From: Amoebophrya sp. A120
Lineage: Eukaryota > Protista > Dinoflagellata
Direction of reading: 5' to 3'
Assembly: GCA_905178155.1 (NCBI GenBank)
Contig: CAJINV010000021.1
Location: 731,530-795,529, forward strand
Length of the DNA: 64,000 bases
Under the pieces are notes generated by a model, which was not told the DNA's origin, did not search any database, and was given only the letters and a program-made list of their open reading frames with translations. Below are positions 9,810 to 64,000 of the stretch, piece after piece; positions within the stretch are counted from its first letter, which is position 1, and each line of letters starts with the position of its first letter. The translations under genes and the position numbers were made by a program.

Positions 9810-11017
9810 CTACTTCTTCTTTTCTGGAACCAGTGTCGGCAAAAATATCTGTTGACGGCGCGGCTTCGCCACCGGCGTGGTCTCTTCAGCAAAAAAGCAG
9901 AGGTCGTTTTCGAGGAGAGGTGGAATCACCGTGGTCGCAAACGAGCGGGAGACTGGCGTGAAAGGTTGTCCACAAGCAAAAGCAGTACAACCACCGCACA
10001 TATTGTTCAAGTGGGATAACTCGTCTTCATCCGTTTGGTGACCCACCTCCCCGGAGGATACCAGGAAGTTATCCTCTCTGCAGAGCCCTTCATCCGTAGT
10101 CCTAGTTCCCGCTGGAAATGGAGTGAATTCTTCGCAAATAACGCTGGAGAAGACCAAGTCAAAGTGCGGTAAAACAGCTTGGCATTCGTCCTGTCGCGGC
10201 TCGCTCATCTTCAATTTATCTTTACTGATGGGATATCCACCAAGAAAAAATAAAGTGTGTAAGTGTAAGTGTAACTGTGTGGGACGAGTAGCATTACATC
10301 AAATTCGCTTTGCATATACAGAGAAAACCTGTCATGCGCAGCTAGTACGTGCAAACACGTATGAAGCATGGCTATGACGCACGTCCAGCATGACAAGTGT
10401 AACTGTGTTGCATTTTCTGCATCACAGACTTACACTTACACACTTTTTTTCTTGCGTATGGGAAAAGGAAAATTATCGTCCAACGACGACGGGGGAAATA
10501 GAAGAACGCTCGCTTCCCACAGGCGTTCACTCTTCCTTTCGTAATCGTAGTCGTACTCAAAGTCAAACTCATCATCGCTGACGGTACTATGGGGCTCCTC
10601 CACGCGTTTCGATTTTGAACAACTACGGGTGCCCGCTCCGCGTAGTAGTTGTGGCGACAGTGCATCATCTGGCGTGTAGTTGTCGCTGTTGTACTTTATT
10701 TCCACCACATCCCAAACTGTGTTCGTCTCCTCGCGCGGACTGTGCGGCCTTTGTGCATCGTCCCCGTTGTGGTCTTGCCCCTGTGCGCCGTGGTCCGCAG
10801 TAGGGTCGTGCCCCTCGCGGGCGAGATGAGAGTGCTTCATTTCGTCGTTGTTGTAAGTTAGTTGTTCGTCCTCGTGACCGAAATTAGAAAGCTGGAAGGG
10901 CACGTGGGAACCTTTCGGGGCCGAGGCGAACTCTGATTCGTCGTCCGTGAAGATTTTTGTTCTGTACAGATGAAGTCGGAGATCGTGCGGAGCGGAAAGT
11001 AGGTATCGAGTCAACAA
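9810..11017 (-). CDS. Hypothetical acidic low-complexity protein split by one introner; start and end uncertain
   Basis: Removing 10234-10463 joins ORF 10436-11017 (...FPFPI) to ORF 9810-10214 (SKDKLKMSEPRQ...) in frame. Confidence 0.55.
10234..10458. mobile_element. Introner, family B (225 bp), TSD TGGGA
   Basis: TIRs tatccaccaagaaaaaataaagtgtgtaagtgtaagt / acttacacttacacactttttttcttgcgta. TGGGA at 10229-10233 and 10459-10463. Confidence 0.85.
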
Positions 11018-11021
11018 AGCT

Positions 11022-11752
11022 TTACTTGAAGGGAAGTTTTCTTAGCACCGCACTGATGACGCGTCTTGTTGCTACGCGGGACAGGTCCTTGGAAAATTTC
11101 TGCACAAAAGGTTTAGCAGCGGCCTGCAGCTTTTCGGCCAGTCCGTGGTAGTAGCTAGTTGAGGTACCACGAGTTGCTGCGTTCGTTGAAGAAAAAGATG
11201 TTGACGTTCTTTTCGTGCTGTTCGAAAAATAACCTTTTTTGTCCTTAATATCTTGCAGTGCTGGTTTGTTGGCAGTCGAGGTAGTATTTTGTCGCTGAGA
11301 AGCCCCTGTAGCAAATCCTTCTGCGAACTGGGAGAAGGCCTTCGGCGCCTCGGTGGCCCACTGGGAGGTACGCACAGCGAAAGTGCGGAAGGCTGTATCA
11401 ACTGCAAACATGTGTGGGTCTGGAAGGATGTAAGACTTGTCATGCAGATTTTGATTTTCCATGACCCGTAAAGCCTGTAAAGCATGACCTAGCATCAGAG
11501 ACTTTTAGAGGGCTTCCTGATGCGCCTTCCACATGATAAAAAAATGCCCTGTCTGCGTAGCACGCACTGGACCCCTCTTGCTGGTCATGCAATACAAACT
11601 TTTTTAGAAACCAAAAACAGCATGACAAGATCCAGACCCAGACATATTTGCATTTGATAGGCTGGGCTGTTGAGCAAGAAATCCTTCAAGCCGTGCTGAA
11701 TCTGCTTCTCGTGCTGCTGGAAAAACGCGCGGAAAAAAAACCAGGGATTCAT
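11022..11752 (-). CDS. Small basic protein (~150 aa), 2 exons; weak resemblance to the Mrx7/NCBP2AS2-type LLxSPxF motif
   Basis: MNPWFFFRAFFQQHEKQIQHGLKDFLLNSPA joins FRTFAVRTSQW... in frame after removing the introner plus one TSD. Confidence 0.7.
11396..11659. mobile_element. Introner, family A (264 bp), TSD GGCTG
   Basis: TIRs tatcaactgcaaacatgtgtgggtctgga / tccagacccagacatatttgcatttgata. Perfect 5-bp direct repeat; frame restored. Confidence 0.92.
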
Positions 11753-12559: not shown

Positions 12560-14749
12560 TCACGCAGCGTTATACGGCTTCCCCGCATGGTCGGGAAGGG
12601 ATATGTAGCCCGTATCGGGGTCGAACAAACCAAGATGAGTGCTGTATCCCACGCTGCCGGGGGCTTCCCAGGGCGGGATGAATTTGCACTTGTACTGGCA
12701 GTAGCCTGGGTCGATGGGCGGTTTGTTGTTCCTGACCGGCGCGTCGTGCGGGATGCCCAGTTGCCGCGTGATTCCCCACGGCAGGGCACCTTTATTTTGT
12801 GCCGCGAGCGCGCGCTCCATCAAGTCTTTGCGGCAGTCGAGGTGCAGCCAGTGACCGCAGCGGTAAATCTTTCCGATGTTCCACTCCGGGGGATCGTCCT
12901 CGTCCTCCAAGCAAATGGTGCAAGACCCGGGGCGCCGCAGCGTGACGTTCACCAGCTCCGTGGCGTCCGGGTTTCCGAAGAGGAGCATGCAGTTGTCCCA
13001 AAACTCGTACAGACCCGTGCGGAGGAAAGTGCTGCAGGTCGTTGTACTATCCACAAAGCCTTTCAGCACGTGGAAGCACTCGCGCATGATCGGCTTCGTC
13101 TCGACGATTGTAAACTCCTTCTCCCCACACCGCCGCGGCAGCATTTGTGCCTGAATGTCGTTGCCACTGAAATTATGGCACAACATCGTCATCAGGCCCG
13201 TGAACCGGACCAGTGCCCACAACTCTCGCAGATCGGGACGACCGCGCTGCCGCATGTGCTGCACCAAGGATCGCAGCACCTTCGGCAGGTCCTCGGCACA
13301 GTAAATGTCGATCGCCTTCATCATTTTTCGCAGGGGATACAGCGTCCATTGTGTGGGAAGTGCGTGCGGTCCAGAAACCTCCTGTCGCATCCGCGAGAAG
13401 AACTTGCGCTCAAAGTGGATGATCGATTCGATCGCACTGACGATGATGGCAATGCGCGCAACCTTGTCCTCTTCGGTCTTGTGCTTCGCCGCAGCCGCAG
13501 CGTCTTGCTCGCTTACAAACCCAAAGAGTTCGACGCCGCACCATGACTTGGCGACCACCTCGAACGGCGCATCGGCCTGGTCAAGGTCGGTGAACATGGT
13601 CAAAAAAGACAGCGTATGCATCGCAAATATGAATGGGAATGGAAGATGAGTGCAAGTTTTGTCATGCAGGCTTTTCATGGCCCATGAGGTCTCGTCTCGT
13701 CTGGAATGCGGGAGTTGAATGACATATTAAATATCATGCCTACCCTACATGAGAAAATCTCCTTCATCTTGCTCGAAAGTGGGCAGCTTCTGGCACTCAT
13801 GCAACACAGATTTTTGCATGATTCAGATTCAGCACGTAAAGTTGCAAATGCAATCTGCCAGACCTTGACATATTTGCAGTGCATACTGCGGGAATCCTCC
13901 TTCTTCCGCACAAAACGTGAGCTGATCGGTGTTGTTCATGAGAAGGAGAGTAACATGGCACACGTCCAGCCACAAGCGCAGCAGGTGCTTATTCTTTCGA
14001 AAAGGATTTTGGTTATCGGTTCGAAAATCGTCGCGGAGGCTGGAGCGAAAGGCGAGGTCGGCCACTAATCTGTATTTCTTGATGAATTGCTGGAGCTCGT
14101 CGGTCATCGTTGCGAAATGCTGCTGCAGCCCGCGAGAGCAGTTTCCCTCGTCCACTGGTGTGCCTGCTGCGCCAGGAGTTGAGGCCGCAGCAGGTGGGTA
14201 GTACTTCGTGTAGGAGAGAAATTTGAGCAGGAGAACAGACACGCACACGCGGACATCCGGCTCGGAGGCAGCATCCGTCCGCTCCCACTTCAGCTTCAGC
14301 AGGTCGAATCGCATCTCAGCATCGGCACGCGTGGCGGGGATCTGGTGCAGTTCTTGACGTTCAAACCACCGCCAGAACTGCTCCAACGCGTCCACTTCTT
14401 CGTCAGCGCCGTCAGCACGGCGGCCCTCGTCCCCGCTACCCGCATTCGCTGCTTCCAATGCGTCCTCCCCGGGCGTCGCAGCGGATGTTGATGACGCAGG
14501 GTTCGTAGATGCCGTCGTCTCCTGCGGTCCTCGTGTTTCACGTCGTTTGCTTTTGCAGTCGAGTTTGTGACTTTTCCACTCTCGTTTTTGGCATTCACGC
14601 GAACAATAGTACACGCGCTTGCAGCCGGTGCACGCCCTCAACTGCACACTAGCGGACCCCTCTGTTTCCCGTGTTCCACAACAATCGCATGCGTGCGGCT
14701 CGAGTTCTTGTGCTTGCGCGGTTGCGGAATCTGAAACACCGACAGCCAT
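12560..14749 (-). CDS. MYND zinc finger + C-terminal RING-H2-like protein (paralog 1), 2 exons
   Basis: MYND: CDCC..CTGCKRVYYCSRECQKREWKSHKLDC. RING-H2-like: CTIC..CGHWLHLDC..CQYKC. Exons join across the introner at 13615-13885. Confidence 0.88.
13615..13885. mobile_element. Introner, family A, diverged (271 bp), TSD CAGCG/CTGCG
   Basis: TIRs tatgcatcgcaaatatg / catatttgcagtgcata. Joins GGFP(Q/L) to SFLTMF in frame. Confidence 0.85.
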
Positions 14750-16114: not shown

Positions 16115-18237
16115 TCAGCTTGGCGGAGTATACCGCTGCGCCTCGTAGAGGTCCACCGGCTTGATCACGCCCGACATGGAGTCGAGCATGGCCACCATCT
16201 TCCGACTTCCGACGGAGCCATTCAGGTCCCAGGCCGCGCGGGCGGTGGGGTCGCACTTGAACTGACAGTGCGGCGGGAGCGGGGTCTTCAAGTCCCAGGG
16301 AAGCGTCGGATTGCGGTTCGCGTGCGCGACCATCTGCTCTCGGCACTCCAGGTGGAGCCAGTGGCCGCACATGTAGATTTTTCCCACATCCTCCTCCTTC
16401 ACCTCGCCCTCCTCGAAGCAAATCGCGCAGGTGTTCGGCGACTTCACCCGGATTCCAAGATCCTCTGCGGCCTTGGGAACGGCGAACAGAAAACAGGCGT
16501 CGCTCCAGAGATCGTGAAATTCCATGCGCAAAAAGCTGTGAAGATATTGGTTTTGACTTTCAGGAGCGCCGTCGCAGCTGGCGGATTGCACGAACTTCTG
16601 CACGATGTCAAAGCACTTCCGAAAGATGTTCCGCGCTTCCCGCAGACTCAGTTTCTTGTTCCCCGCAGTTCCGCCCCTCGCCGGCAGCCAGAGCTCCTGC
16701 TGCTCCCGCCCTTGGTAGTTCCAGAGCAGGTCGCCCATGCTGCGCAGGACAATCTGCAGTCCCCAGAAATCGCGAACGTTGAATCGCGGCTTCTTCCGGC
16801 GGATCGCGAGGACGAAGTCCAGCAGCAGTTTCGGCAAGTCCTCCGCGTGGTCCGCGCCCACGAGCTTGAGCAACTCGCGAATCGGGAGTATGCATTGCAA
16901 AAGTACGGTCTAGAGGAAGCAGAAGTAGATGAAATAGCATATGCATATACAAATTTCCAGAAAGAAAAATGAAATTCTGTTTTTGATCCTGAATGGGCTA
17001 CATAAACCACTCCCGTCATGCTGTACTGCAACTGGTGGTACAAGCGCGGTTAGCATACTTTTGCAATTAGCATAAGCAGCAACATGATGCAGAAAGACAG
17101 CGGCGAGTTGGCGACGACCCGAATTCGGGAAAAATAGCGTGCGTTGATTTTGGTCAGGGAGTCCACGAGGGTCCAAACGAGAAGTTTCTCCTCCATGGTC
17201 AGTAACTTCTTCTTCTTGTTTCCACTACTCTCAGTTTCAGTTACAATTTCCACATGATCCTTTCCGAAATTCCGCGCCACCCACCACGCCACCGTGTTGA
17301 AGGTGAGATCCAGACACCCCAGGATCCTCGAAAACCCGTCGCCCGCGTCGTTCGGCAAATAGTCCAGGAAGGTCCAGTCCGCGTTGCTCATCAGCAGCAC
17401 CAGGGCGGCGCTCGCTTCGATCCACAGCTTCAGCAGGGACTCATCCTGTGCAAAGAACGTATCGGGGGCTCGCCCGCAGTCGACGATGAAACCAATCAAC
17501 TCCTCCGTGATGTCCTCCCACGGGATGCTGGACTTGAGATTGTCAACATCTGCCAGTTCTTTGAAGTCACCCTCGCGGCTGCTCTGAGGATCTTCAACAA
17601 ACGGGAAATAATCCATGTAGTGTAGAAAGTTGAAGATCGCCAAGGACAAAGTCACCCGTGCGGCGACATGCCCCTTACATTGTCGCCATTTCGTCAAAAT
17701 CTCCTTGACCCGCCGCCCCGCATCGCTTATGCTGGTCGGAACACTGTTCAGGTTTTCGTCCTCGAACCACGCAAGCACGCCGTCGTAGGATGTTGTTGTA
17801 ACGCTTCTTGTTGACGCTATTGATGTTGTACAACTTACCGCAGCACCGCCGGGCTTGCAGTTTAGCTTGTGCTTCTTCCAGTCTGCACGTTGACAAGCTT
17901 CGGAACAGTAGTGTACGATCTTGCATCTGGAACACGCTTTCAACTTCTCGAGGTTGTTGGCACCAGTAGTGCCACATTTGTTGCAGCTCATGGCCACCTT
18001 CAAACTCGTCTCGTTGTGGTCCTCCTTCTTGTCCAGTATCGCCTTCGGTCTGGGCGCGTCCGCAATGCATCTCCGGTCGTTCTCGCTCTGCGCGTTCGTG
18101 TACAGAGATTCGTACGGCTTTCGCGACCACGTCGCTTTCTGGATGAACCGCAGGATGACGTGAGTGAAAACAAAATACAGCAAGCCACCCACGATCCGAC
18201 CGCAAATCTGCAGGGTGAACCCGAGTGCTTCCAACAT
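16115..18237 (-). CDS. MYND zinc finger + RING-H2-like protein (paralog 2) with N-terminal hydrophobic segment, 2 exons
   Basis: CNKC..CSRCKIVHYCSEACQRADWKKHKLNC and CAIC..CGHWLHLEC..CQFKC. Aligns with paralog 1 at AEDLPK and GKIY.CGHWLHL.C. Confidence 0.88.
16889..17074. mobile_element. Introner, family C, diverged (186 bp), TSD GGGAG/AGCAG
   Basis: TIRs tatgcattgcaaaagtac / atacttttgcaattagcata. Removing 191 nt joins the two ORFs in frame. Confidence 0.8.
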
Positions 18238-18848: not shown

Positions 18849-19405
18849 CTAAAAGTCATTTTCTCGGAATTCTCTGCAGCACCCCATGACGACGTGGACT
18901 AGAACCACGTAGTAGAAGAGCAGCGCGGCCCAGCCGACTAAATGTATTTCTAGGTATTCCTCAATTTGGAACACCCAGTACACCATGCCCCAGTAGTACA
19001 GCGTGTTGCTATACCGGACCGTATACGCAAAAGACCGAAGCATGTCGTCGTAAAGTTTGTCCTTGATCGCTTCCCCCTTGGCCTCGTTCTGCCGTCGGCG
19101 GCGCTGGTACTGTATGGAGTAGAACGCGATGAGGGAGACGTAGGCGAGAAGCAGCATCAGCCCGATGTTCCAGCTATCGTTGTAGAGGGACAGCTATCCT
19201 GTGCAAAAGTATCGCACTCGTAGTAATCGCAGTTATGCATTACAAATCTCCATCCCAAGGCAAAACAGCATGACAAATTCCATTTGTCACGCTGAGCTAA
19301 TTTGTATTGCAATTGCTACTAGTACGATACTTTTGCAGTTCATAACAGCGCGTGCAAGAAAATCTTCAAAAAACCGAAGACGACGCCGACGAGGAAAATC
19401 AGCAT
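18849..19405 (-). CDS. Small multi-pass membrane protein (~133 aa), 2 exons
   Basis: MLIFLVGVVFGFLKIFLHALS joins LYNDSWNIGLMLLLAYVSL... after introner removal. Several hydrophobic stretches. Confidence 0.75.
19195..19344. mobile_element. Introner, family C (150 bp), TSD ACAGC
   Basis: TIRs tatcctgtgcaaaagtatcg / cgatacttttgcagttcata. Perfect TSD; differs at 9 of 150 positions from the reverse complement of 21342-21491. Confidence 0.95.
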
Positions 19406-19552
19406 GCTGTTATTTTGCGGGAGTGAATATCAATATGAAACGAATCCTGTTATATATTGATTTTGCGGCACAACAAAATCCTAGTCCTAGTACGCCGGCC
19501 TCAAGTACATACAAGAACTCCGGGCAAATATCAAGAAACAAGAACAAAAATC

Positions 19553-21199: not shown

Positions 21200-22146
21200 C
21201 TACTGCTGCACCTCTTTTTTCCTCTTCCCGCCCTGGCTCCTCGGACTGGCCCCGCTCCGCGGACTGGCTCCGTAGGCGCCCACGGCGGAGGAGGCGTTGG
21301 AGCCGTGAAAACTCGACCCCGTGTTGTTCGCGGACGACGCGTATGAACTGCAAAAGTATCGTACTAGTAGTAATCGCAAGACAAATTAGCTCAGCACGAC
21401 AAATGGAATCTGTCATGCTGTTTTGCCTTGTGATGGAGATTTGTAATGCATGACTGCGATTACTACGAGTACGATACTTTTGCACAGGATAACGCGTTTC
21501 CCGCGGCCTGCGCCATCTGCATGGTGATAGCGCCAAGCTTATGCATTGCAGAAGTACCATACTCGTACGTATTCCATTTTCAATCGCAGACATGCATTAC
21601 AAATTCATTTTAAGCTTATTAATCCGCATTACAAATTTCGTTTCTCTTTCTGAGAAAATTTGCCATGCAATTTATACGTAGTACGATATTCTTGCAATGC
21701 ATAACGCTTTGCAAAATTCTCCGATTTCTCCGCTTCCTCTAGCTCTTGCAACTCCAGCACTTCCCGGTCCCGCTGGGCGAAGTTTCTCTCCGTCTCATCC
21801 ATGTAGTACTGCAGTTGGTCGTGGTACTCTCGCATCATATCCCACGAAAAAAGTGTTACAGTTACACATTTGTAGTCAATTCAGCAACACAAATTTCTCT
21901 GTATGAGAGAGAAAACTTGTAATGCAGAAATCCTACGGGAAAACACGTATGAAACGAGGCTCCTATGCATATCCGGCATGACAGAGCTTGTCTGTCTTGC
22001 TTGGTCTGCAACACTACCACAATGTGTAACTGTAACACTTTTTTCTTGCGATACATCATGACCGTGCGGTAGTAGAGGGAGATTGGGAAAAACAGCAGCA
22101 GGCACAGCAACCCGAACGCGAGAATCACATTGAACTGCGTAATCAT
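21200..22146 (-). CDS. Small protein with N-terminal TM and coiled coil; 4 exons separated only by introners
   Basis: MITQFNVILAFGLLCLLLFFPISLYYRTVMM/REYHDQLQ...ENFAK(R/L)/GAITMQMAQAAGNA/SSANNTGSS...KKEVQQ*. The ORF is open only after all three introners are removed. Confidence 0.8.
21342..21491. mobile_element. Introner, family C (150 bp), TSD ACGCG
   Basis: Perfect TSD; inverted near-copy of 19195-19344; frame restored. Confidence 0.95.
21540..21703. mobile_element. Introner, family C, diverged (164 bp), TSD AAGCT/ACGCT
   Basis: TIRs tatgcattgcagaagtac / gatattcttgcaatgcata; frame restored. Confidence 0.85.
21838..22053. mobile_element. Introner, family B (216 bp), TSD CATCA
   Basis: TIRs tatcccacgaaaaaagtgttacagttacacatt / aatgtgtaactgtaacacttttttcttgcgata. 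Perfect TSD. Confidence 0.95.
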
Positions 22147-22298
22147 GCTGCCGGACTCGATTTGCGTCGGGGTTTGGTTGCCGTGGGAGAGCTAGGTTTT
22201 TGTTTTTCGATCCATCAATCAAAGTGCTGGCGGTGCAACCGAAGTTTTACTGCACTAATCGATGAATAAAATAGTGTTAGTTAATGAATGATCATGCA

Positions 22299-23865
22299 TC
22301 ACAAGGTTGGTCTATCAAACTTTAAACTACGAATCGGACTTGGTTCACAAATGAATAGTACCGTGAAAGTGCACGACCAGGGGTCCTCATCGCAAAATTT
22401 CTCTCTGCCCTGCCCGTCAATCTCGGTCGTGATAAAATGGCAGCAGTTCGTGGTGGGCGGACACAATTCCCGAAACGGTTCGTCGTGCGGCTTCCCGTCG
22501 TCGTCAAATTTCAGGTGGAAATACGCCTGCCCGTGACCTTCCACCTGCAAACTATGCAACACAAATTTCCTCTCCTGCACATATACAAAATGCATCACAA
22601 ATTTCACCACCTTGGAAGAGCATGCACCTTGTCATGCTGATTAGGATAGAAAGAAAGTTTTGTCATGCAGAAACCGCATTTTTGGTACGTGTACGGGAGG
22701 TTTACTGTGGATACAACTCAAACAGACACTCCTCGCACTTGTGCCCCGGTTTGTACCCAATCGTGGTGCAGGTGGATTCCTTGCGCGGAAGAAGATTGCC
22801 CATAGCGGCGAAGTACACCATCATCAGAATCACGCCTGGTGGAGATTTTCATTTTGACGCGATGAAATATCGTCTTCATTGGAAGCGGCCATGCATGTTG
22901 CAAGTAGCGTGTCACTCATTCAACAAGGGAGAATCATGCAATATTTCTCATTCTCGAAGATTGAATTTCTCATCCAAAAAAAAATCGCAGTTTTAGTCAG
23001 CGTGGCAAACCAAATCTTCTTCTAACGAAGTAATCTATACCGGTGACGAAAATTCCCGTTGGTATGAGGAACCAGAAGCAGACGTTCTTTCGTGGATTTG
23101 TTGGCATTTTGTGCTTCTGCTTCCTCGTCTCTGTGTCTTCTGACCAGTCGGACTCACTCTCTTCGACCACGTGCAGTCTTGCGAGGAAATGGTGCCAACC
23201 GTGATGGTGGTGCCGACTGCTCTTCTTGGATGCCTGCCGCTGTTCGATCTGATGAAGATTTTTTTCCAAAGTTAAAGAAAGAACCCAGATTATATCACCT
23301 GCGCAGAATTTGAATTGAAGATTGATGGCGCTAATACGATGCCGCGAATCCCAAAGAAATAGAAACTCATGCAAAATCCAAAAGCAATATATTTCCATAC
23401 TCATACCAGTTCCCACGGCTTTGGCGGTCTTGGCGCGTAGACATATCGCACCTGTTCTCCTCGGTTGTAAAACTTCTTACTACTGCTTCGGGAAAAGGTC
23501 ACGCTCTCCTTCGAGGTTTTTTTCGACCTTGGCGCCGAAGAGATCGCTTTCGAACCGTGGAAAGACTTGGCCTTGGACCCCTCCGCAGTCCGCGCACCAC
23601 CATGGTGATCACCTCCGGCGGTTGGTCCTCCGTAGTACAGCTCCGGAATAGATTTACCCGCGACCGTCCTGTCATGCGACTGGACTCCCTCGGGGGACAC
23701 AATGTTCTTGAAGAGTTTCACCGAGCCACGAATGTTGTTCGGGTTGACCTGTTGTTTGCTGCCGGAGGAGGGCGAGGTGACCTGGTTTGTTCGGGTGCTG
23801 GGCGACTTCGGCTTTTTGTCGTTGGGCGTTGTGGCCCGGTCGTTCAGAAGCGTTAGCGGAGGCAT
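22299..23865 (-). CDS. Hypothetical membrane protein with Cys-rich C-terminal part, ~4 exons
   Basis: ORF 23401-23865 splices by GT-AG to IEQRQ...FWFLIPTGIFVT, then by GT-AG to GVILMMVYF...CEECLF, then across the 22553-22713 element to LQVEGHG...CPPTTNCCHF. Confidence 0.65.
22553..22713. mobile_element. Degenerate introner (161 bp), TSD CAAAC/CAACT
   Basis: Both ends keep TAT-N7-AAA (tatgcaacacaaa; tttactgtggata) and internal ttgtcatgc motifs. Removing 166 nt restores the frame. Confidence 0.7.
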
Positions 23866-45100: not shown

Positions 45101-45244
45101 GAGCCAGTCGGAGCCGTCATCGTACATAACCTTAATGGTCTGACCGGTGACGAGCGGCAGCGGCTTCTGCCGCTTGAAGGGCCAGTCGATCTTCGTGGGA
45201 TCGAAGTTGTACAGCGCCACGAGCTGCTTCTTGTCGTCGCTCAT
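33167..45244 (-). CDS. Very large multidomain protein: SH3, CEP164-like WW, B-box, many IQ motifs, C-terminal TPR-like helices; about a dozen GT-AG introns plus 6 introners
   Basis: SH3 VALYNFD..DWLLG..KGYFPKNY; WW-like PLPPHW..WYIN..HP; B-box CSEC..CQQCTDYYCIMCFQKLH..RKH; IQ motifs IQKFCRGALAR, IQALFRGKIVR, LQSAFRG and IQRLWRG. Junction phases checked by hand are consistent, except the unresolved junction at 35582-35737. Confidence 0.8.
34197..34420. mobile_element. Introner, family B (224 bp), TSD CTCGT/GTCGC
   Basis: TIRs tatcccacgaaaaaaccgtttcactgtga / tcacagtggaacagttttttcttgcgata. Inverted homologue of 59408-59616; frame restored. Confidence 0.9.
34497..34765. mobile_element. Introner, family A (269 bp), TSD CCGTT
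   Basis: TIRs tatcaaatgcaaatgtgtggtctgggtctggaa / ttccagacccagacttatttgcaatgcata. Perfect TSD. Confidence 0.93.
35582..35737. mobile_element. Introner, family C, with one decayed end and no recognisable TSD
   Basis: Left TIR tatgcattgcaaaagcatcgt is intact; the right end (actagtacgacacttttgatgtcaact) is decayed. Lies between two coding exons. Confidence 0.7.
38043..38203. mobile_element. Introner, family C (161 bp), TSD CACGT
   Basis: TIRs tatgcattgcaaaagtatcgtact / agtacgatacgttatttgctcaggata. Joins IQKNV to RRLL. Confidence 0.92.
39163..39424. mobile_element. Introner, family A (262 bp), TSD CATGT
   Basis: TIRs tatcaagtgtaaaaatgtctgggtctgg / ccagacccagacatttttacatttcata. Joins LANM to PPHLRH. 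Confidence 0.93.
41574..41783. mobile_element. Introner, singleton family (210 bp), TSD ACAGG/ACAAG
   Basis: TIRs tgtgagcgtgcacaactcccccccctcctcattt / aaatgagaaggaggtgggggagttgtgcactttcata. Joins FREHL to SDCIQ. Confidence 0.85.
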
Positions 45245-46695
45245 GGTGGGCAGTGGGGTATTGTGATCACAAGCAACTAGAAGAAGAAGTGGAGACTGTC
45301 GTAGTACAACCCTCCTGCCGCGGCGGGATGCTCGGGGAGACGACTATAATCGTGTTGTCTCTTTAAGTTGTGGAACTTCAGCTCAAGGATACTGTCCGAG
45401 CTGGTTCTACGAATGCAGCCACCGCAAAGGGAGCTGCTGAAGAGGGTGCCATAATTCTTTCTTTTGTTCGAGCTAGAAGTTTAGTTCTCATGCGGAGACC
45501 ACATTACTTATTCACAGCATTTATTGTAGAGCACCGGACACCTATTTCTTCTATTCTTCTGCGCGTTTTTTATTTCGGTTCATGTTTAATATTTCGTGCT
45601 TCCAAGAATTTTTCCAGACGTCGACAGTGGGCAAAAACAAACCACGATGGTAGTGCATCAGGTGTACGAACTAGACGTGCAACGAGGGTGGTGGATGTGC
45701 GGGGAGAAGTAATGAATTAATACTATGGGGTCTACTAGCTGCAGGCAATACAAATACTAGCTGCAATCACAAATATTTTCCTGTGTCCATTTTTTCTAGT
45801 GGAAGACTTCTGCCCATATTTCTCGACGACGAGATCCTCCTGACGTGGTTCGCTTTCATTCCCAATCGCACCCCCACTGCTGGTAAACGATCACATAGCA
45901 CTTTATCCCACAAATAACGTCTGACGAAGCGAGCTCTTTTTCCAAACAAATGAAGATAAACGAGTAGCTGCAGTTGGACTTTCAATCTTGAGGCGGCGAA
46001 GATTCCGGAAACTAAACTAAAGTAAACTTATTTTCATCACGACGACCATAATACACGAAATTCTGTTCGAGTCACTGCGCGCACAGCTCAACTACATTCC
46101 ATTCGTAGTCATACGTTCAACTCTCTCCCTCAAACTCGATTTATCATTACGTCAAATTCTTGAAATTCTCTCTTTGCTGCTCTCTCTTGCTGCCTGCTCT
46201 ATCGTAGCCTTTCACTCTGTCACTCACGAGGACTATCACTCGCCCCTTTTCCAAACAGCGTGCCTACAGGTACATCTAGAATCGTGCCTCTAGTACTTCT
46301 AAAATTGCTTCGGTTCATGCTGATGAATAGGTTCAAGGAGGACAAGAACAATCTATTTCGGGACGCACATATTAGAGTCGTCTGCGATAGATCGCCGTGA
46401 TACCGGCTTGTTTTTTTTTCTAGAGGAAGATCTTCGACATGATCATGATCTATTTGAATTTCTGGTGGCGCGGTGGAAAACTGAAACTATGATATCTTTT
46501 TTGCACCACTATTGCTGGTTTTTACGGGTAGAAAGTGTTGGAAAAACTCAAATGCAAATTTGTGTCTGTGTGGTTCAAAAGACAAATTTTAATTTTGATT
46601 GATACTGTAGTTTTTTAGTTGCAGTAGATAGTACAAATGACGACACTTCCTCTACCAATAAACTAGAACTACTCTATAGGCCTATTTTTTCTTTC

Positions 46696-56590: not shown

Positions 56591-59500
56591 TCACCCCGCT
56601 CCGGGCCCTAAGCCTGCGCCGAAGGCGGCTAATTTTCTGCCCTCCTTTATCCTGAGTAAAAACGTACCCACGCCAGAGTTGTAATGCAGATTTGCAAAGA
56701 CAGGAAGACTTGTAATGCGCATCCGCATGAGAGCCATTCCCAGTCGTATTTTGGAATTTGTGATGCTGTGAACAGGATGAGCAGACGAATCTGTGATGCG
56801 GCTGCACTTGCTAACCCGCACTACACTGCAGAGTGCAACTTGTCATGCGTGACTCACAAAACTCCTAGCTTTGTGTTGCAAAATCCCCATCCTGACTCTG
56901 GTGTGGGTACGTTTTTACTCAGGATATCCTTACTGACCGCCATCTGCCGCACCACTTCCTTCATTTCCGGCGTCCATTCGATCTCCCTCTCGACCTCCGC
57001 GTCCTATGCAATGCAAAAGCATCGTACTAGTATAAATCGCATGACAAATTCCCTCAGCATGAAAAATCGAATTTGTAATGCGGATTTCGGTTAAGATGGA
57101 GATTTGTAATGCATGACTGCGATTACTACGAGTGCGATACTTTTGCACAGGATACGTCCTTTTCGATTGCGATGTCGATGAACCGTTCGTGCGGCCTCCG
57201 CATAGACTCGCCGGAGGAGAAGTTGTAGTAGTACTTGACGCCTCGCAAGTCGTAGAACGCGTGCCACTCCTCGCCGAGCGTGGTCTGTATGGGTGCGCGC
57301 TTGGAAAACCCCTCCTGCGCCTCGTACGCCGGATTCACTTCTCCCAAGGCCCACACACGGGTGACCCCGCCCGACGGCGCGTTCAGATTCGGTGCAGCAG
57401 CGCCTGCTCCCGGTGCGGCGGCCCCGCCCGCGGCTCCTCCTGCCGCGGCGCCACCCGCTTCCGGCGCACCCGCACCGGCGTTCTGAGGTGGCGCGGGTGC
57501 CGGTTTCCTCTTCGCCGTGTAGTCGATTCGCAGTGGCTTCAGGTCCAGAAACTTCGGCAGGGTCTTCACGTGCTTGCGGGCGTAGCACTCGTGGCAGTAG
57601 TTGCCGAAGGTGTAGGTGCACTGCAGTTTGGCCGGGAACGCGCGGCAGAGACAGCAGGGAATCAAGTGGTTTGGCTCGTGCTTGTGCCGGTTACCCTTGC
57701 TGTGCAGCCGCTCGAAGCAGTTCTCGCAGAAGCAGTCTTCGCAGTCCGGGCAGTAGCAGGTCGCAATCACCTGGCACTCGATGCAGTACAGCTGTGCGTG
57801 CGCGCTCGGATTGACCAACTCCCCCGGATCGTCCTCCAGGTCCATGTTCTTCGCAATATTGGCCTTCGCGCGCTCGTTCTCCACGATTTCCAGACACCAC
57901 TTGACCTCCTGCGCGTCGATCTCCTCTTCCAGCCGGTACTGCTGCGAAAACGCCTTCAAAAAAGTCTTCAGCGTTCGGACCATGAAGGGTTCCTTCGGCA
58001 GGTCGATTTTCAGCATCTCCGCCATCTGCTGCACGTAAAGCGGGGAAATCAACGGCTGTTGCAGCGACACGTCGTGCTGACTCTCCGCCTCGTAGGTCCA
58101 CTATCCAAGAAAAAAACGTTGTTAGTGTAAATTTGTGATGCGGAACATGCAAGATGATTGCGTCTGTCATGCTTGGCATGCATTGTAGGGCCCACTAAAG
58201 GGCGTTTTCACGTACTATCTGCGCATGACAGGTTTTTGCTGTCATGCCAGACAGATTTGTAATGCTGTTCCTCCAAAAAAGTTACACCTACAATGTTTTT
58301 TTCTTGGATATCCACAGCATGCGGTTCAACCGCAGTTTGATATGCTCCTCCTGACTCGCCCTTCGGCAGTGGTCGAGCAGCTGCGCAAAGTAGTCGTAAA
58401 ACGGGTGCTTCCACGTGGTTTCCTGGGACTCGTTGTTCAGGTAACACACGATCGACCCGACACCCTTGTAACTTGTCCACGGGACCGGCAACTCTACTTC
58501 GGCGAAGGCCTCGATCACCCAGCTAAACTCGCGGTCCGCCTCCGGATCCGCATTCAAGTACGCAAACCACTCCTCAAGCACAGGCCTGAGCGATTGATTG
58601 TGATTGTGTGGTCTTGTAGTAGAAACTATCGTGCTCACTTCTTTCTCTTTCACGCAAATTTTTGAAAATGCAACACCATGATCTTGATCATGCATGCTTG
58701 CCCATGTATTGATGGCACGACGAAAAGGTGAGAGCACTTGTTTCATCGAAGTTTGAATTTGAAAGCAAAAGGGGAAATAATAAATAAAGGGTGAAGCAAA
58801 AAAATTTCTACCTTTGTCCCATGCACTTTAACATTGGCACGGTGGCTGCTTTTTCCAGGGCCTTCTGTGTGACCGGGTCTGCGATACCGAACAGGGACAG
58901 GGGATCCGCGTCGAGGTAATCCAGCGCCTCCTCGGACAATTCGCGATTGTCTTCCAGGGTCTGCTATGCATCCCAAATATGTCCGGGTCTGGAAAAATAT
59001 AACCTGTGTTGCGCGTCCGGGATCCCTGTAAAGCCTGTATTGCATGACCAACAAGAAAGCCGAAACCACTTTTGTCATGTTGGGAAACTAAGGGCAGGGC
59101 GTCCCTGTGTAAATAGCGTAAAACGGTAACTAACCGCCTACTCAGCAAACTCGAAACCACTTTTGTCATGCAAAAGCACAGTCTCTGTCTCTGATGCGCA
59201 CTACGCATGAAAAAGCGCCCTAGAAATTTGTCATGCTTGGCTGCACGACTCAGGAGTATGTATGCTCATCACAAGTTCTTTCCAGACCCAGGAGACATAT
59301 TTGCAATGCATATCTGCAAGGCCTCAATCCACAAGGAGTCCACATCATCCGTCCAGTCGAGGAGAATGTTTTCTGGGTGGACGTACGCGACCCTGAGGTA
59401 TGTTATTTATCGCAAGAAAAAACTGTTTCACTGTGAACCTGTGATGCAGAGAACGAAGCGCCAAAGTGTTTGTCTTGCTACACCTGCAACGCAACGGATT

Positions 59501-60715
59501 TTTAGGCGTGTTTTCCCTTGGAAAACGTGCATGACAAATTTTCTGTGTCATGTGTAGCAAACTTGTGATGCAGATCCTGCAAAACCATCACAGTGAAACA
59601 GTTTTTTCGTGGGATATTATTTCTTGCACTAACACTATTTATCGACGAGATCATCTCCATGTAGTTCATGCACGAGCACCAGAAGAGCTGACGTGCTCAC
59701 TGCCATACTGCGAAATAGACCTCGGTCCTCAAGCAGCTAGTAGCTGAATCTGAGCTAGGCTACATGGATCTACTTCTAGTACATCACATGTACTACGAGT
59801 ACGAGTCAGAACATTTGCATATATATTGTACCTGTATTCTGGCCCATTGTCACCCTCTTTGGTTTCGAAAAACACGCTGGTATCGTCCACCTCCACAGCG
59901 GCTTGAAAATTTGCGGGTATGTATCAAATGCAAATATGTCTGGGTCTGGAAATAAAGTGCAAGTTTGTCATGCTGGTCTGGCATGAGTCTGAAATCTGTG
60001 ATGCATGAGCAGGAAAAGCGCCCCTTGCCTGTCATGCAAAAATTTAGTTTGTCATGCGAAAAACGAAACACACAGCAGCGCAAAAACTTGTCATGCTGGG
60101 CTGCATCTTGTTGTGCGCCCACAATTCGTAGATTTGCATCACAAGTTTCCAGACCGAGACCCAGACATATTTGCATTTGATAGTATGACACCGGGCACGA
60201 GATCGTCCGGCACTTCCGGCACGGGCGGGTACTGGAACTTGTAAACATCCGGCACCACCGTTCGCACTTCCCCAGGCACATCGGTTTCCTCGGGGATGGT
60301 GACCATGTACCCGAAGGAAATGATATCATATGTAAGAACATCCCCACCCCATTGTCAAGTTGGAACAACTCAGCAACACAAATCCAGAAGTTTTGGGAGC
60401 CACGCGTGACAAGTTGCAGTCCGTAGCGTAGTGCATCTTAGCAAGGACAACCGCATCACAAATCCGTCTGCGTCTGCTTCTCCTGTTTACAGCATTACAA
60501 ATTCCAAAACCCGATTGGAAATGCCTCTCAACATGGAGACGCGCATTACAAGTCTTCCTGTAATCGCAAATCTGGATGACAACCATCATGGGGTGGGGAC
60601 GTTTTTACTCAGGATAAATGACCTTATGCCTCCTCGGCTGCTCCTTCACCCGCACAATGGGGATCTTCACCTCCGGCTCCGCCACCCGGCGGTGCCCCTC
60701 GTCGCCGCCCGACAT
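56591..60715 (-). CDS. CEP164-like WW + two B-box zinc fingers + WW protein; 7 introners plus GT-AG introns
   Basis: AYLNADPEAD..W....ELPVPW..YLN..QETTWKHP; CIEC..CPDCEDCFCENCFERLH..RHKH; EEWHAFYDLRGVKYYYNFSSGES. The frame is restored at each introner. The junction near 59630-59831 is not fully resolved. Confidence 0.85.
56648..56926. mobile_element. Introner, family D (279 bp), TSD TCCTT
   Basis: Near-perfect TIR tatcctgagtaaaaacgtacccac(g/a)ccagagt. Joins VSK to EGRKL. Confidence 0.95.
57005..57154. mobile_element. Introner, family C (150 bp), TSD CGTCC
   Basis: Right ~58 bp nearly identical to 21342-21491; perfect TSD. Joins IEKD to AEVER. Confidence 0.95.
58102..58310. mobile_element. 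Introner, family B-like (209 bp), TSD TCCAC
   Basis: TIRs tatccaagaaaaaaacgttgttagtgtaa / ttacacctacaatgtttttttcttggata. Joins RMLW to TYEAE. Confidence 0.93.
58965..59312. mobile_element. Introner, family A (348 bp), TSD TCTGC
   Basis: TIRs tatgcatcccaaatatgtccgggtctggaaa / tttccagacccaggagacatatttgcaatgcata. Internal duplicated cgaaaccacttttgtcatg. Confidence 0.92.
59408..59616. mobile_element. Introner, family B (209 bp), TSD TTATT
   Basis: TIRs tatcgcaagaaaaaactgtttcactgtga / tcacagtgaaacagttttttcgtgggata. Perfect TSD. Confidence 0.93.
59922..60182. mobile_element. Introner, family A (261 bp), TSD GTATG
   Basis: Perfect 26-bp TIR tatcaaatgcaaatatgtctgggtct. Joins PGVI to PANFQ. Confidence 0.95.
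60324..60616. mobile_element. Introner, family D (293 bp), TSD AATGA
   Basis: Inverted homologue of 56648-56926; perfect TSD. Joins HKVI to SFGYM. Confidence 0.92.
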
Positions 60716-61788
60716 GGTGGTCGAGGTGGTGTTTTGGGGCTGTACTAAACCACGTACAAGCTGAAGCTTATTTTACAGCTCCTCCGCGAGGATTGGTCGA
60801 TTGGACGAGGTCGTGTACTACACAGGTTGTGCAGAAGATGAACTGTCACACCGCGGCGAGCACACGTCACGATATTACCCCAGCTCCTCGCAGACGTCGC
60901 ATCCTCGTCATTTCATCAAACATACAAATCTTTAGCTCAAAAAACAGTCTGCTAAATCAGAGCCTGGTGGTTTTTTTTCAATTTCAATTTGGTTCGTTGA
61001 ACGACAGAAACAGTTGTTGTGCGTACTTACTGTGAGTGTAATAAATAAGAATGCTTTATTTTCGATGCACGAATTAGAACAAATTGAAATTGGCGGAGGA
61101 TGTTGGCGTGGGGTAAGGGAGGTACTCAATTGTCGCGGAGACGCAAACGCGATTAGAAACGAGATGGCGATGGGAGGGGGCAGGGGACAAATGACGATCT
61201 GGGTAGCGAGACAATCCTGCACTTTCGGTTAGAAACGAAGTGCGTTTAGCCCCATTGGTTCACTTTTTCTTTCGAGCTCTCCCACGGAATCAATGTCGAC
61301 ATCTCTCAACGAGCAATTCGGAATTCGATTCTCTTACTCTTTCTCAGTAGTCGTTGCATATGATGACAAACAATAATTCATGCGATGGTTTATCACTCAA
61401 CGAAATCAGATCCACCCCTACAACATAATACAAAGCACGACCCAACAAGAACTTCTATCTCTCTGCCCCCATATCATGCCCGATTGTTCTTTTGTCAATG
61501 AACACATCCTGACTTTATTTCGACAAAGTAGAACCACTTCCCGAAAACGAATGGTCAGTGAAAATTTAAGGTTGCCAGCTATGAGGTAGAAAGCGTCGCA
61601 TCGGTCCAATTCGTCCAAATAGATTTTTACAGGATCTTCTGGGGGGCGATGAAGACAATGGGTAATCGCTATCGCAATCATACTGTAGGGTTTCATATGC
61701 CGAGTTTCAAACAAGTAGCAAAAAGAGCACACCGGCCTCAACGATGGGAAAAACGATGCTCCTTGTAATTTGTGCATGTGCTCTCGTC

Positions 61789-64000
61789 TCATGTAGGCTC
61801 GAATTTTCGTATCTTCTTGTACCGATCGATATCGGACGGGAACATGGTGGGGGTACCACCAGACGAACTAGTGTAAAATAAAACATTCAGTTGCGATTAC
61901 GAATAAGCAGTCAATGAGCAGGAAGTTCAGAGACCACGATCGTGTAAGACGAAAAAGAAAGTTATCCAGCAGCAGGTTCCCGGCTAGTACTAGTCTAGTA
62001 GTATCTCCACTATCAATTTCTAAATCTGATTATCCTACAAACCTCCCGCCGAAGAACCCCGCTTCTCTCGGCTTGCAAGGGCTTCGTTTTACCAGACACG
62101 GATCGTTCGGCAGCACCACCGTGTGGTTGATCTTGGCCGGCACGCTTTCGTAGTAGCCGTGATTTAAGCTGTATGCATTGCAAATCTGTCTGGGTCTGGA
62201 AGATGTCATGCTGTTTTTGCATGACGCAGAAGGTCTGGCATGGAAGCCCTAGCATCACAGATTTCGACAAGGTTCTGCAATGCCTAATCCGCATGACATA
62301 TCCCCCACTTTGGTGACAAGAAGTGGGCATCTTTTGCTGCCTATGCATGAGAGATTTCTGTGTGTTATGAAATGCGCATCGCAACTTCACATCCTTCCAG
62401 ACCCAGACATTTTTGCAGTTGATAAGCTGCGGCGCTCGACGAAGCTCTTCTTGTCCGCAGCAAACTCCCCCCGGTTGCAGCGTTGCGGGTCGGAGGGGAA
62501 CATGTCGATGCCCGACGGGTCGCTGCCGGTGGGCAGCCGGACCATCCGGGACCGCGCCGGCCCGAAAAACCCGTCGTAGTCTACCGGCTCGGGCTTGCTG
62601 TTCTTCATTGCCCTACCTCTTCTGTCGGTTTCCAAATACGCTCGATACTCGGAATCGCCACCGGCCGCGACGAGCATGTTAGTTACCGAAATGGCATCCT
62701 TCGTCGCTGTCGGACTCCGGTCCACGGCGTGAGGGGAATTTACCCTGCGGCTGGCGTCCTGTCTTTGAAGCTCTTCTGCGAATTGTTGTTGTGCAATCTT
62801 GGCGTTGTGCAGCTGTTTTTGCTTCAATGGGTGGTCGGAGCTCTGTTCTATCAGTTGCTGCAAAGACATATCCCGGTTATCGAGGAAAACGTTTCTGGCG
62901 GTATTTCCGTCTGGTTGTTGACCTCCTGCTTGGTAGTTATTTGCTTGTCCCGCTGCGGCTGCCGCTAATGCTGCTGATTGCTGCACTTCCTGCGCAGTCC
63001 TCGGACTTCGCTGCTCTACCCCGGGGGAGTGACGCACCGCGCTCCTGGGCGATTGAATTCCGTTGTAATGCCTCTTCCTCGCCTCGAATAAGTTTTCCCT
63101 CTGGTCGGCACCGAAATTCGCCTCATCAAAATTTCGTTCTTGTCCGCGCTTTTCTACGTGGTTTTTGTAGTCGCGCAGAACCCCAGAAGGGCTGGTGACT
63201 TCGGCGCTCCGCGTGTACACATCAAACTCCTTTGGCGGCAAAACGTCGACGTCTTTGAGCAGCGTTGGGGCTTGGGGGACTACAGCGCGCCGGCCGTAAG
63301 GAGATGAAGTAGGCGAGATCAAATCCTTCACCAGGTTACTTTCCTTCTCCATCGGATTGATCCCGACCCGTTTCCCCCTACCGAGTGGAAAGTCCCCACC
63401 GGCACTCGGGAGTGCTTTGCTAAACTCCGGATTACCGCTTCCTCCGTAATATCGGCTTTCCTGCTCTTCGTCGTACTTCATGGAATACTGATCGCCGTAC
63501 TTCGCCCGCGGCACTAACGCCCGCGTCGGGTTCCCGGGCATCAGCGCCGGGTGCGCGCGCTTGCGGTCCAGCCGCGCGTGCAAAACCGGACTGTGGGCCG
63601 CGGGGCCGAACCCGGGGAAAACCCCGTTCGCCCGCTGTGGGGAGGAATCGCGGTGCAGCTGCTCCTCCTCGTGCGCCAGTTTCCCCCTGTAATCGAGCAT
63701 CACCCCGGTTCGGTCGGGGGAAAAGCTCTGCTGTGAAGGTCTCTGCTGATGTTGTTCGTTCCCAGTACCTGGCGCACCTCCTAAGATCGTCACCTCCGTC
63801 TCGTTCGGCTTCCCCGCTACCCGCGCGCCGTGGGGAACATACCGTACGAGGAACGGGTCCCCGGAATCGCAGTGATTGTACTTCAACAGACTTCGGTCGG
63901 GGGAAAAGTTGCCGACGATCTCTTTTTCCGGGCTCATCGCGATCTCTTCCTCCACCTTGTAGCAATTTGGCAGGTATTTGTAATTGTTCACGCCCGTCAT
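61789..64000 (-). CDS. Hypothetical low-complexity protein, probably 5'-truncated by the window edge
   Basis: ORF 62387-64000 continues across the introner (VERRS to LNHGYYE...), then via a probable GT-AG intron to SSGGTPTMFPSDIDRYKKIRKFEPT*. Confidence 0.7.
62172..62424. mobile_element. Introner, family A (253 bp), TSD AGCTG
   Basis: TIRs tatgcattgcaaatctgtctgggtctggaag / cttccagacccagacatttttgcagttgata. Perfect TSD. Confidence 0.94.

What the first reader, a model, noticed from the sequence alone, without database searches (positions are those of the whole stretch)
10234..62424. 23 TIR/TSD elements inside exons that must be excised precisely as non-GT-AG introns
Seen: 23 elements of 150-348 bp in four families plus two singletons (A x7, B x5, C x7, D x2). 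They end in TAT-N7-AAA...TTT-N7-ATA and carry a 5-bp direct repeat of variable sequence (16 perfect, 6 with 1-2 mismatches, 1 lost). All interrupt coding sequence, and in 22 of 23 cases removing the element plus one repeat restores the ORF. In nearly all cases no sliding of the junction gives GT-AG. Known: TIR plus TSD is the signature of a non-autonomous DNA transposon, and inverted-repeat introners were reported in Amoebophrya (from memory, Farhat et al. 2021), with the splicing mechanism and mobiliser unresolved as far as I know. Inference: a second, structure- or protein-guided excision system works alongside normal GT-AG splicing in the same genes.
Basis: partly seen in the sequence, partly recalled or inferred. 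Interest (0 to 1): 0.9.

Follow-up and report, generated by a model that had tools for sequence, protein, structure and literature searches.

The report
Known introners, cut at one register
These 23 hairpin-shaped transposon copies in the genes of a parasitic marine protist match the published Amoebophrya introner elements, are removed to the base in the RNA data that cover them without using GT-AG signals, and are likely cut at one fixed position relative to their ends, which gives a concrete test of how they are spliced.

Summary
All 23 elements are real: 150-348 bp, 5-bp duplication perfect in 16. Their TAT-N7-AAA ends are the motif Farhat et al. 2021 published for Amoebophrya A120 introners, and an exon's best named hit is Amoebophrya A25 (85%), so the class is already known.

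RNA reads or transcript contigs lose exactly element+5 nt at 13 elements; orthologs confirm nine more. One element (59408) is not exonic: it sits inside a conserved GT-AG intron.

New here: copies with imperfect duplications locate the cut. Four RNA and two ortholog cases share one register, intron = N-TAT...ATA-NNNN. It follows transcript direction rather than element orientation, bypasses a length-neutral GT-AG at 22553, and argues against reverse-transcriptase jumping. It puts the transposon's T and A at intron +2/+3, as in this genome's GTA donors. I therefore slightly favour a relaxed major spliceosome (0.5) over a separate nuclease/ligase (0.38); the machinery is untested.

The scan noted similar introns in other genomes. 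In passing, four wild relatives appear to read all three stop codons as alanine.

The parts
10234..10458 (.). Family B element; TSD TGGGA/TGGGA; host gene on minus strand
   Evidence: X5 contig skips 230 = 225+5
11396..11659 (.). Family A element; TSD GGCTG perfect
   Evidence: X5 skips 269 = 264+5
13615..13885 (.). Family A element; imperfect TSD CAGCG/CTGCG (register-informative, k<=1)
   Evidence: X5 and X3 skip 276 = 271+5, slide 2
16889..17074 (.). Family C element; imperfect TSD GGGAG/AGCAG (k=1-2; the only RNA case that excludes k=0)
   Evidence: one X5 contig, depth 6.5, skips 191 = 186+5, slide 1
19195..19344 (.). Family C element; TSD ACAGC perfect; 94% identical to 21342, inverted
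   Evidence: X5 skips 155
21342..21491 (.). Family C element; TSD ACGCG perfect
   Evidence: X5 and X3 skip 155
21540..21703 (.). Family C element; imperfect TSD AAGCT/ACGCT (k=0-1); opposite orientation to 16889 and 35582
   Evidence: X5 and X3 skip 169 = 164+5, slide 1
21838..22053 (.). Family B element; TSD CATCA perfect
   Evidence: X5 and X3 skip 221
22553..22713 (.). Singleton; imperfect TSD CAAAC/CAACT (k=0-3); the length-neutral GT-AG at k=4 is not used
   Evidence: X5 and X3 skip 166, slide 3
34197..34420 (.). Family B element; imperfect TSD CTCGT/GTCGC; homolog residue needs k>=1
   Evidence: P0024, P0002 have RRERPDE; no RNA laid
34497..34765 (.). Family A element; TSD CCGTT perfect
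   Evidence: gap-free to P0024; no RNA laid
35582..35742 (.). Family C element; imperfect TSD TCCTC/GCTTC; homolog residues fit k=1-2
   Evidence: P0024 KKKD; no RNA laid
38043..38203 (.). Family C element; TSD CACGT perfect
   Evidence: gap-free to P0024
39163..39424 (.). Family A element; TSD CATGT perfect
   Evidence: gap-free to P0025
41574..41783 (.). Singleton with a different TIR and a TG end; TSD ACAGG/ACAAG (mismatch silent in protein)
   Evidence: gap-free to P0025; register not testable
56648..56926 (.). Family D element; TSD TCCTT perfect
   Evidence: 283 X10 raw RNA reads plus X5 contig skip 284 = 279+5
57005..57154 (.). Family C element; TSD CGTCC perfect
   Evidence: 339 X10 raw RNA reads plus X5 contig skip 155
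58102..58310 (.). Family B element; TSD TCCAC perfect
   Evidence: X5 contig pieces end 58096 and resume 58311 = 214 skipped; X10 loose ends; A25 ortholog
58965..59312 (.). Family A element (longest, 348 bp); TSD TCTGC perfect
   Evidence: A25 ortholog gap-free; contig length count
59408..59616 (.). Family B element nested in a canonical intron, 15 nt from its 3' end; TSD TTATT perfect; not exonic
59393..59831 (-). Canonical GT-AG intron that hosts element 59408; the same position is intronic in relative L002
   Evidence: ortholog PEY|RVAY; L002
59922..60182 (.). Family A element; TSD GTATG perfect
   Evidence: A25 ortholog gap-free
60324..60616 (.). Family D element; TSD AATGA perfect; 77% identical to 56648, inverted
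   Evidence: A25 ortholog gap-free; X5 contig piece begins at 60616
62172..62424 (.). Family A element; TSD AGCTG perfect
   Evidence: X5 contig pieces 61575-62164 and 62423-62922 = 258 skipped = 253+5
56600..60720 (-). Host gene, WW (PF00397)/PF22586 zinc-finger protein of about 630 aa, with 6 exonic elements and 2 canonical introns
   Evidence: 85% identical to Amoebophrya sp. A25 P0026 over one exon; model
33170..45250 (-). IQ-motif (PF00612) coding region, probably two neighbouring genes, with 6 elements and about a dozen canonical introns

Best explanation
These are short transposon copies in Amoebophrya genes that are missing to the base from the spliced RNA, and they are likely cut at one fixed position set by their own inverted ends, probably by a relaxed form of the ordinary spliceosome. 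Shown: TIR elements with 5-bp duplications; exact loss of element+5 nt in RNA (13 elements) or gap-free orthologs (9 more); no need for GT or AG. Inferred from six informative copies: the removed piece is N-TAT...ATA-NNNN, that is one base of the upstream duplication, the element, and four bases of the downstream duplication, so the exon keeps exactly one copy. Inferred and untested: the paired ends, or a protein bound to them, bring the two sites together in place of U1 and U2AF. The element's first T and A then stand at intron +2/+3 as in a GTA donor, U2/U5/U6 catalyse the two steps, and the 3' cut is measured four bases past the stem instead of being found at an AG. Spread is likely by a DDE/integrase-type transposase encoded elsewhere, with IS3EU/GingerRoot-like TA..TA ends but a 5-bp stagger.
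For: Exact joints: 9 of 9 elements in 10000-23000 (RNA-like contigs that also lose GT-AG introns); 283 and 339 raw RNA reads at 56648 and 57005, and contig pieces at 58102 and 62172. DNA-like run X1 has neither of the two listed joints. Register (k = left-repeat bases kept on the + strand): 13615 k<=1, 16889 k=1-2, 21540 k=0-1, 22553 k=0-3; 34197 k>=1 and 35582 k=1-2 from homolog residues; only k=1 fits all six. 21540 is inverted relative to 16889 and 35582 yet shares the transcript register. At k=1, +2 is T and +3 is A in 22 of 22 exonic elements, and canonical donors here are GTA in 13 of 15. All nine top A120 non-canonical classes in Farhat Table S4 have T at +2, and the A25 classes all begin TT. 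U1 snRNA was not found in A25/A120 although U2, U4, U6 and nearly all spliceosomal proteins were, whereas an Amoebophrya with canonical introns has U1. Tunicates show that a U2 spliceosome can adapt to TIR/TSD introns.
Against: Intron +1 (A4, C4, G7, T7) and the last two bases are unconstrained, and the printed list shows no evident +1/-1 pairing rule; known spliceosomes constrain these (established knowledge). No branch-point motif is visible outside the TIR, and the 3' cut is only 4 nt from the stem. The T+2/A+3 match is one of six possible registers, so about 1 in 6 by chance. Table S4 junctions come from an aligner that may favour donor-like placements. A shared register among six cases would arise by chance 12.7% of the time under independent uniform cuts. 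Exclusion of k=0 in RNA rests on one contig at depth 6.5. Contigs drop minor isoforms, and the X10 reads seem to come from few molecules (153 reads end at one adapter site, 58543). Euglenid TIR introns leave as circles, apparently by another route.
Confidence: 0.5

Rival explanations
1. The same fixed register is produced by a spliceosome-independent route: a structure- or TIR-specific endonuclease cuts 1 nt before and 4 nt after the terminal stem, and an RtcB-type ligase joins the exons. This would be a precise version of SOS splicing, or akin to euglenid nonconventional introns, and is close to the first reader's 'second system'.
For: No constraint on terminal dinucleotides; GT-AG ignored at 22553; 18 of 23 elements fold better than shuffles at z<=-1.8, 16 of 23 at z<=-3.7, against 1 of 12 canonical introns below -2; works in both element orientations; a TIR-triggered RTCB route exists in animals; euglenid TIR introns leave as circles.
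Against: SOS splicing cuts at multiple sites and leaves indels, while the listed joints here are exact. Excision stays exact where the terminal TAT/ATA pair is predicted unpaired (10234, 19195, 22553, 57005) or folding is weak (13615, 16889, 22553), so pairing alone does not set the site. The register coincides with the canonical donor.
Confidence: 0.38
2. The elements are spliced at RNA level but the cut position varies from copy to copy inside the duplication, as Farhat's Fig. 3 legend has it, and the single register is a coincidence of six cases.
For: Only six informative copies; a common register arises by chance with p=0.127; two of the six rest on homolog residues, not RNA; Farhat calls the sites variable.
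Against: All six admit k=1 (p=0.007 for that particular register, chosen after the fact); Table S4's top A120 classes all have T at +2.
Confidence: 0.07
3. The elements are excised from DNA (somatic elimination as for ciliate IES, or frequent precise transposon excision), so transcripts come from element-free templates.
For: TIR/TSD anatomy; contigs drop rare variants, so element-free alleles could be hidden; 291 joint rows were not shown.
Against: X1 contigs run from unique flank into the elements and show depth 0 for both listed joints. The register follows transcription direction, not element orientation. All host genes here are on one strand, so a strand test was not possible.
Confidence: 0.03
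4. The joints are reverse-transcriptase template-switch artefacts at direct repeats flanking a hairpin.
For: Hairpin plus direct repeat is the classic substrate (established knowledge); X10 looks like a low-input amplified library.
Against: A jump would be expected to keep the whole downstream copy (k=5), which all four RNA-informative cases exclude. Conserved proteins need the removal, and every element has stops in at least two of three frames. X10 shows depth 0 at five positions inside elements.
Confidence: 0.02

Closest known systems
Introner elements (IEs) among the non-canonical introns of Amoebophrya sp. A120 (Farhat et al. 2021, PMC7789003)
   Same: IR begins TAT + 7 variable nt + at least 3 A; 3-5 nt direct repeats (5 bp in Fig. 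S19 legend); hairpin; mean non-canonical intron length about 240 nt; RNA-supported; mixed with GT-AG introns in the same genes; species-specific positions.
   Different: Nothing in kind. Farhat leaves the border 'variable/unknown'; here it is narrowed to N-TAT...ATA-NNNN. [quoted passage not shown]
A120 TIR-DNA introner families in Gozashti et al. 2025 (PMC12130899)
   Same: 58 A120 families, many classed TIR DNA, with listed lengths from about 100 bp to over 1 kb and several near 150, 210, 255 and 280-305 bp as here; about half of the annotated ends non-canonical (21 of 58 rows seen).
   Different: Superfamily 'Unknown' in the rows seen, with automated TSD calls of 2-5 bp. I did not match window families to their family numbers.
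IS3EU / GingerRoot DNA transposons (PMC10045372, PMC12730594)
   Same: TA..TA ends (TAY..RTA), occasionally TG..CA in GingerRoot; 22 of 23 here are TAY..RTA and one has a TG end. An integrase-like A120 introner family is reported.
   Different: Those families usually make 6-bp TSDs; here 5 bp. No transposase was found.
Euglenid nonconventional introns (reviewed in PMC11282704)
   Same: TIR-paired ends at a fixed offset from the junctions, TSD-like repeats, no GT-AG, coexistence with spliceosomal introns.
   Different: Different offsets (+4 to +6 pairing with -8 to -6) and a pyrimidine|purine junction bias; released as circles; unrelated lineage.
SOS splicing (AKAP17A-CAAP1-RTCB; PMC12779559)
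   Same: Removes TIR DNA transposons from mRNA at non-GU-AG sites, triggered by ITR pairing.
   Different: Imprecise, low in-frame fraction, leaves indels; shown in nematode and human cells only.
Fritillaria borealis non-canonical introns (PMC11282704; 10.1101/2025.08.15.670264)
   Same: MITE-derived TIR/TSD introns excised by a modified U2 spliceosome.
   Different: They keep preferred ends (AG-AC, AG-AT); here +1 and the 3' dinucleotide are free.

Membership tests
Amoebophrya A120 introner elements | IR starting TAT-N7-AAA | tested here: met
   17 of 23 strict at both ends; the rest deviate at one or both ends
Amoebophrya A120 introner elements | 3-5 nt direct repeat at the exon/intron boundary | tested here: met
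   5 bp, perfect in 16 of 23
Amoebophrya A120 introner elements | Removed from RNA with non-GT-AG ends | tested here: met
   13 elements by RNA; 0 of 22 exonic elements are GT-AG at the inferred register
Amoebophrya A120 introner elements | Repeated families, species-specific positions | tested here: met
   50-94% identity within families; relative L002 has the two canonical introns but none of the six exonic elements
Amoebophrya A120 introner elements | Host is Amoebophrya A120 or a close relative | tested here: inconclusive
   Sister to the A25 protein at 99/99 and carries the A120 motif; no whole genome is held, so the strain is inferred
MITE / non-autonomous TIR DNA transposon | TIR, fixed-length variable TSD, short, no coding capacity | tested here: met
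MITE / non-autonomous TIR DNA transposon | Autonomous partner with the same ends | not testable with these tools
   No genome held; 0 matches for a family A end pattern in viral contigs
IS3EU/GingerRoot | TA..TA (TAY..RTA) termini | tested here: met
   22 of 23 (definition)
IS3EU/GingerRoot | 6-bp TSD (usual) | tested here: not met
   0 of 23 perfect at 6 bp; not filed as a member
IS3EU/GingerRoot | IS3-like DDE transposase | not testable with these tools
   No autonomous copy in the window
U2-type spliceosomal intron | GT/GC...AG ends | tested here: not met
   GT-AG option at 22553 excluded by RNA
U2-type spliceosomal intron | Lariat intermediate and dependence on U2/U5/U6 | not testable with these tools
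   Needs lariat sequencing or inhibition
SOS splicing substrate | Imprecise excision at multiple sites with indels | tested here: not met
   One exact joint per element (contigs hide rare forms) and in the rows shown
SOS splicing substrate | Dependence on AKAP17A, CAAP1, RTCB | not testable with these tools
   No genome or genetics available

The most novel reading that the evidence does not exclude
Amoebophrya has a splicing mode with no nucleotide requirement at either intron terminus: the transposon's own ends act as a ruler (cut 1 nt before, 4 nt after), so any insertion with a 5-bp duplication becomes a scarless intron. The catalyst is either a U1-less spliceosome freed of the G+1/AG rule or a precise nuclease-ligase system not yet described.
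Probability: 0.65. Interest if true: 0.75.

Novelty: already known. Interest (0 to 1): 0.45.

Why it matters
The elements and their odd splicing were published in 2021, but how they are removed is still open and the published borders are called unknown. A fixed register turns that into direct tests: it predicts the exact 5' and 3' ends of the excised RNA for lariat, circle or linear sequencing, and it gives a rule to re-annotate tens of thousands of junctions. It also explains why the elements can spread almost freely through exons, since one target copy is always restored. If a spliceosome does this, it tolerates any base at +1 and -1, beyond what the tunicate and dinoflagellate cases I read show. 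If not, it is a precise ligase-based route.

Tried and rejected
No whole genome is held, so no transposase, snRNA or genome-wide register search was possible. The family A end pattern gave 0 matches in viral contigs. The cluster-member look-up could not be made, so the window's own annotated proteins were not seen. X9 laid 3 reads on 55.5-63.5 kb. On 10-23 kb X10 laid none, and X11 laid 72 reads, all only partly fitting and nearly all inside one element, probably from another copy; these give no test. No listed holder was on record as RNA (no RNA holder listed; not evidence). X1 depth over elements (about 1e3-2e5 against about 45 on unique DNA) suggests many copies but is not a copy number. 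A branch-point consensus could not be defined from 15 canonical introns. Two of those 15 (42400, 42900) are doubtful picks and are the two GTG donors; 2 of 12 regions gave no confident intron.


Full report
Observation. A scan for TAT-N7-AAA ends gave 17 strict elements. The direct repeat is perfect in 16 of 23 at 5 bp and in none at 3, 4 or 6-9 bp. Sixty local shuffles give a mean of 0.35 such pairs against 16 observed. An internal motif TGTVATGC (either strand) falls in the elements 61 of 70 times although they make up 5,076 of 64,000 bases, and it is shared by all four families. I infer that it is a common transposase-binding site.

What it is. Farhat et al. 2021 (PMC7789003; abstract, sections 10, 11, 12 and 16, passages, supplement legends and part 3 read; figures not seen) state that A120 introner IRs start with TAT, seven variable bases and at least three A, flanked by 3-5 nt direct repeats. 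An exon of the gene at 56.6-60.7 kb hits Amoebophrya sp. A25 at 85%, and the window's protein is its sister at 99/99. The window is therefore A120 or a close relative, and the elements are that paper's introner elements. Gozashti et al. 2025 (PMC12130899; passages, and 21 of 58 A120 rows of supplement file 8; files 13-14 not searched) list them as TIR DNA introners of unknown superfamily.

Removal from RNA. On 10000-23000, contigs of runs X5 and X3, which also lose GT-AG introns and so behave as spliced RNA, skip exactly element+5 nt at 9 of 9 elements. On 55500-63500, raw RNA reads of X10 skip element+5 at 56648 (283 reads) and 57005 (339 reads), and X5 contig pieces do so at 58102 and 62172. 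DNA-like run X1 shows neither listed joint. Orthologs align without gaps across 58965, 59922 and 60324 and across 34197, 34497, 35582, 38043, 39163 and 41574. That makes 13 by RNA and nine more by homology. The 23rd, 59408, lies inside GT-AG intron 59393-59831: that model matches A25 residue for residue at the junction, fits the 449 letters left in the X5 contig, and the same position is intronic in relative L002, which has none of the six exonic elements. Limits: contigs drop minor forms; 291 joint rows were hidden; and 153 X10 reads end at 58543 in what I recall as a template-switch adapter, so they may derive from few molecules.

Where the cut falls. With a perfect repeat the junction cannot be placed, but seven copies have mismatches. 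Let k be the number of left-repeat bases kept on the + strand. RNA gives k<=1 at 13615, k=1-2 at 16889, k=0-1 at 21540 and k=0-3 at 22553. Homolog residues give k>=1 at 34197 and k=1-2 at 35582; 41574 is silent. Only k=1 fits all six. On the transcript (minus strand) the intron is N-TAT...ATA-NNNN. Three things follow. First, the length-neutral GT-AG at 22553 (k=4) is not used in either run. Second, k=5, expected from a reverse-transcriptase jump, is excluded four times. Third, 21540 is inverted relative to 16889 (weak score) and 35582 (clear) yet shares the register, so the rule follows the transcript and not the element. Against: a common register arises by chance with p=0.127, and k=0 is excluded in RNA by one contig at depth 6.5. 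In print, Farhat's Fig. 3 legend calls the border variable or unknown, though their commonest repeat layout and Table S4, where all nine top A120 classes have T at +2, are compatible with this register. Four searches (listings) showed no paper that fixes it. Roy et al. 2023 (Curr Biol) was seen only as a citation, and subscription papers are outside the library.

Mechanism. At k=1, intron +2 is T and +3 is A in 22 of 22 exonic elements, while +1 and the last four bases are free; canonical donors in the window are GTA in 13 of 15. U1 snRNA was not detected in A25 or A120 although most of the spliceosome was, and strain Kv with canonical introns has U1 (PMC12005148, passages). Tunicates adapt the U2 spliceosome to TIR/TSD introns (PMC11282704, section 6; 10.1101/2025.08.15.670264, abstract). 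I therefore give 0.5 to a relaxed spliceosome guided by the element ends. The rival, a nuclease plus RtcB-type ligase, gets 0.38. Terminal bases are unconstrained, 16 of 23 elements fold at z<=-3.7, euglenid TIR introns leave as circles, and SOS splicing exists (PMC12779559, passages). But SOS splicing is imprecise, and excision here stays exact where the terminal pair is predicted open or folding is weak. No call tests the catalyst.

Mobiliser. Ends are TAY..RTA in 22 of 23, with one TG end. This matches IS3EU and GingerRoot (PMC10045372 and PMC12730594, passages), but those usually make 6-bp duplications, so membership is not met. An integrase-like A120 introner is reported. No autonomous copy could be sought because no genome is held. 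PMC9860276 (passages) gives the general introner frame, including families that take both splice sites from the target site.

Verdict. The added value is a probable fixed cut register, one nested element and a lead on the transposase. Earlier notes of this scan describe similar hairpin introns in other protist genomes; I did not test them.

Side observation. Of 54 loci, four (L001, L011, L024, L046) carry in-frame TAA, TAG or TGA. At columns conserved in 72 homologs these stand opposite Ala in 3 of 3, 6 of 6, 5 of 5 and 10 of 11 cases; the exception is intronic. L002 and L023 have none, and no Gln or Trp column holds a stop. The four form one clade (89/95) among the Amoebophrya-like rows. The reported code of Amoebophrya Kv is UAR=Gln, UGA=Trp (PMC6394959, passages), and two searches (listings) showed no nuclear all-stops-as-Ala code. 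This rests on one gene.

Noticed in passing
L046:5001-8310 (genomic, with GT-AG introns); L024, L001, L011 (intronless, transcript-like): Probable new nuclear genetic code. In these wild Amoebophrya-like relatives in-frame TAA, TAG and TGA stand opposite conserved alanine: 3 of 3, 6 of 6, 5 of 5 and 10 of 11 stops at conserved columns. L024 and L046 are near-identical, so the stops are in both DNA and RNA-like records. The four form one clade (89/95), and the genes of L001, L024 and L046 appear to end in TAA. This differs from the Gln/Trp code of Amoebophrya Kv and was not seen in two paper searches. One gene only; deserves its own follow-up.
   Followed up: partly
window 59393-59831: An introner nested 15 nt from the 3' end of an ancestral GT-AG intron (twintron-like); a natural test of splicing order and of whether the element must leave first.
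   Followed up: partly
all four families, e.g. window 59922-60182: Shared internal motif TGTVATGC, 61 of 70 window hits inside the elements; candidate transposase-binding site that implies one mobiliser.
   Followed up: partly
window 56542: 481 of 522 X10 reads carry an extra A in the 3' UTR that X1 and X5 lack: strain difference or an amplified early error.
   Followed up: no
window 12500-14750 and 16100-18240: Two neighbouring minus-strand genes that look like paralogs with MYND-like and RING-like cysteine motifs (by eye, recalled motifs), each with a different element.
   Followed up: no
window 4800-8790: Long minus-strand ORF without elements that has superfamily-1 helicase-like motifs (UPF1/senataxin type, by eye, recalled).
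   Followed up: no
window 430-1830: Minus-strand gene resembling an RNA polymerase RPB3/RPAC1-type subunit (by eye), with only GT-AG-looking introns and no elements.
   Followed up: no
window 2640-4600 and 31040-31760: GC-rich stretches without an obvious gene; not analysed.
   Followed up: no
window 15400-15660: Short degenerate repeat (15414-15470 matches 15583-15639 at 79%), unrelated to the introners.
   Followed up: no
genes examined, window 9700-62900: All host genes examined lie on the minus strand, in line with the co-oriented gene clusters reported for Amoebophrya.
   Followed up: no
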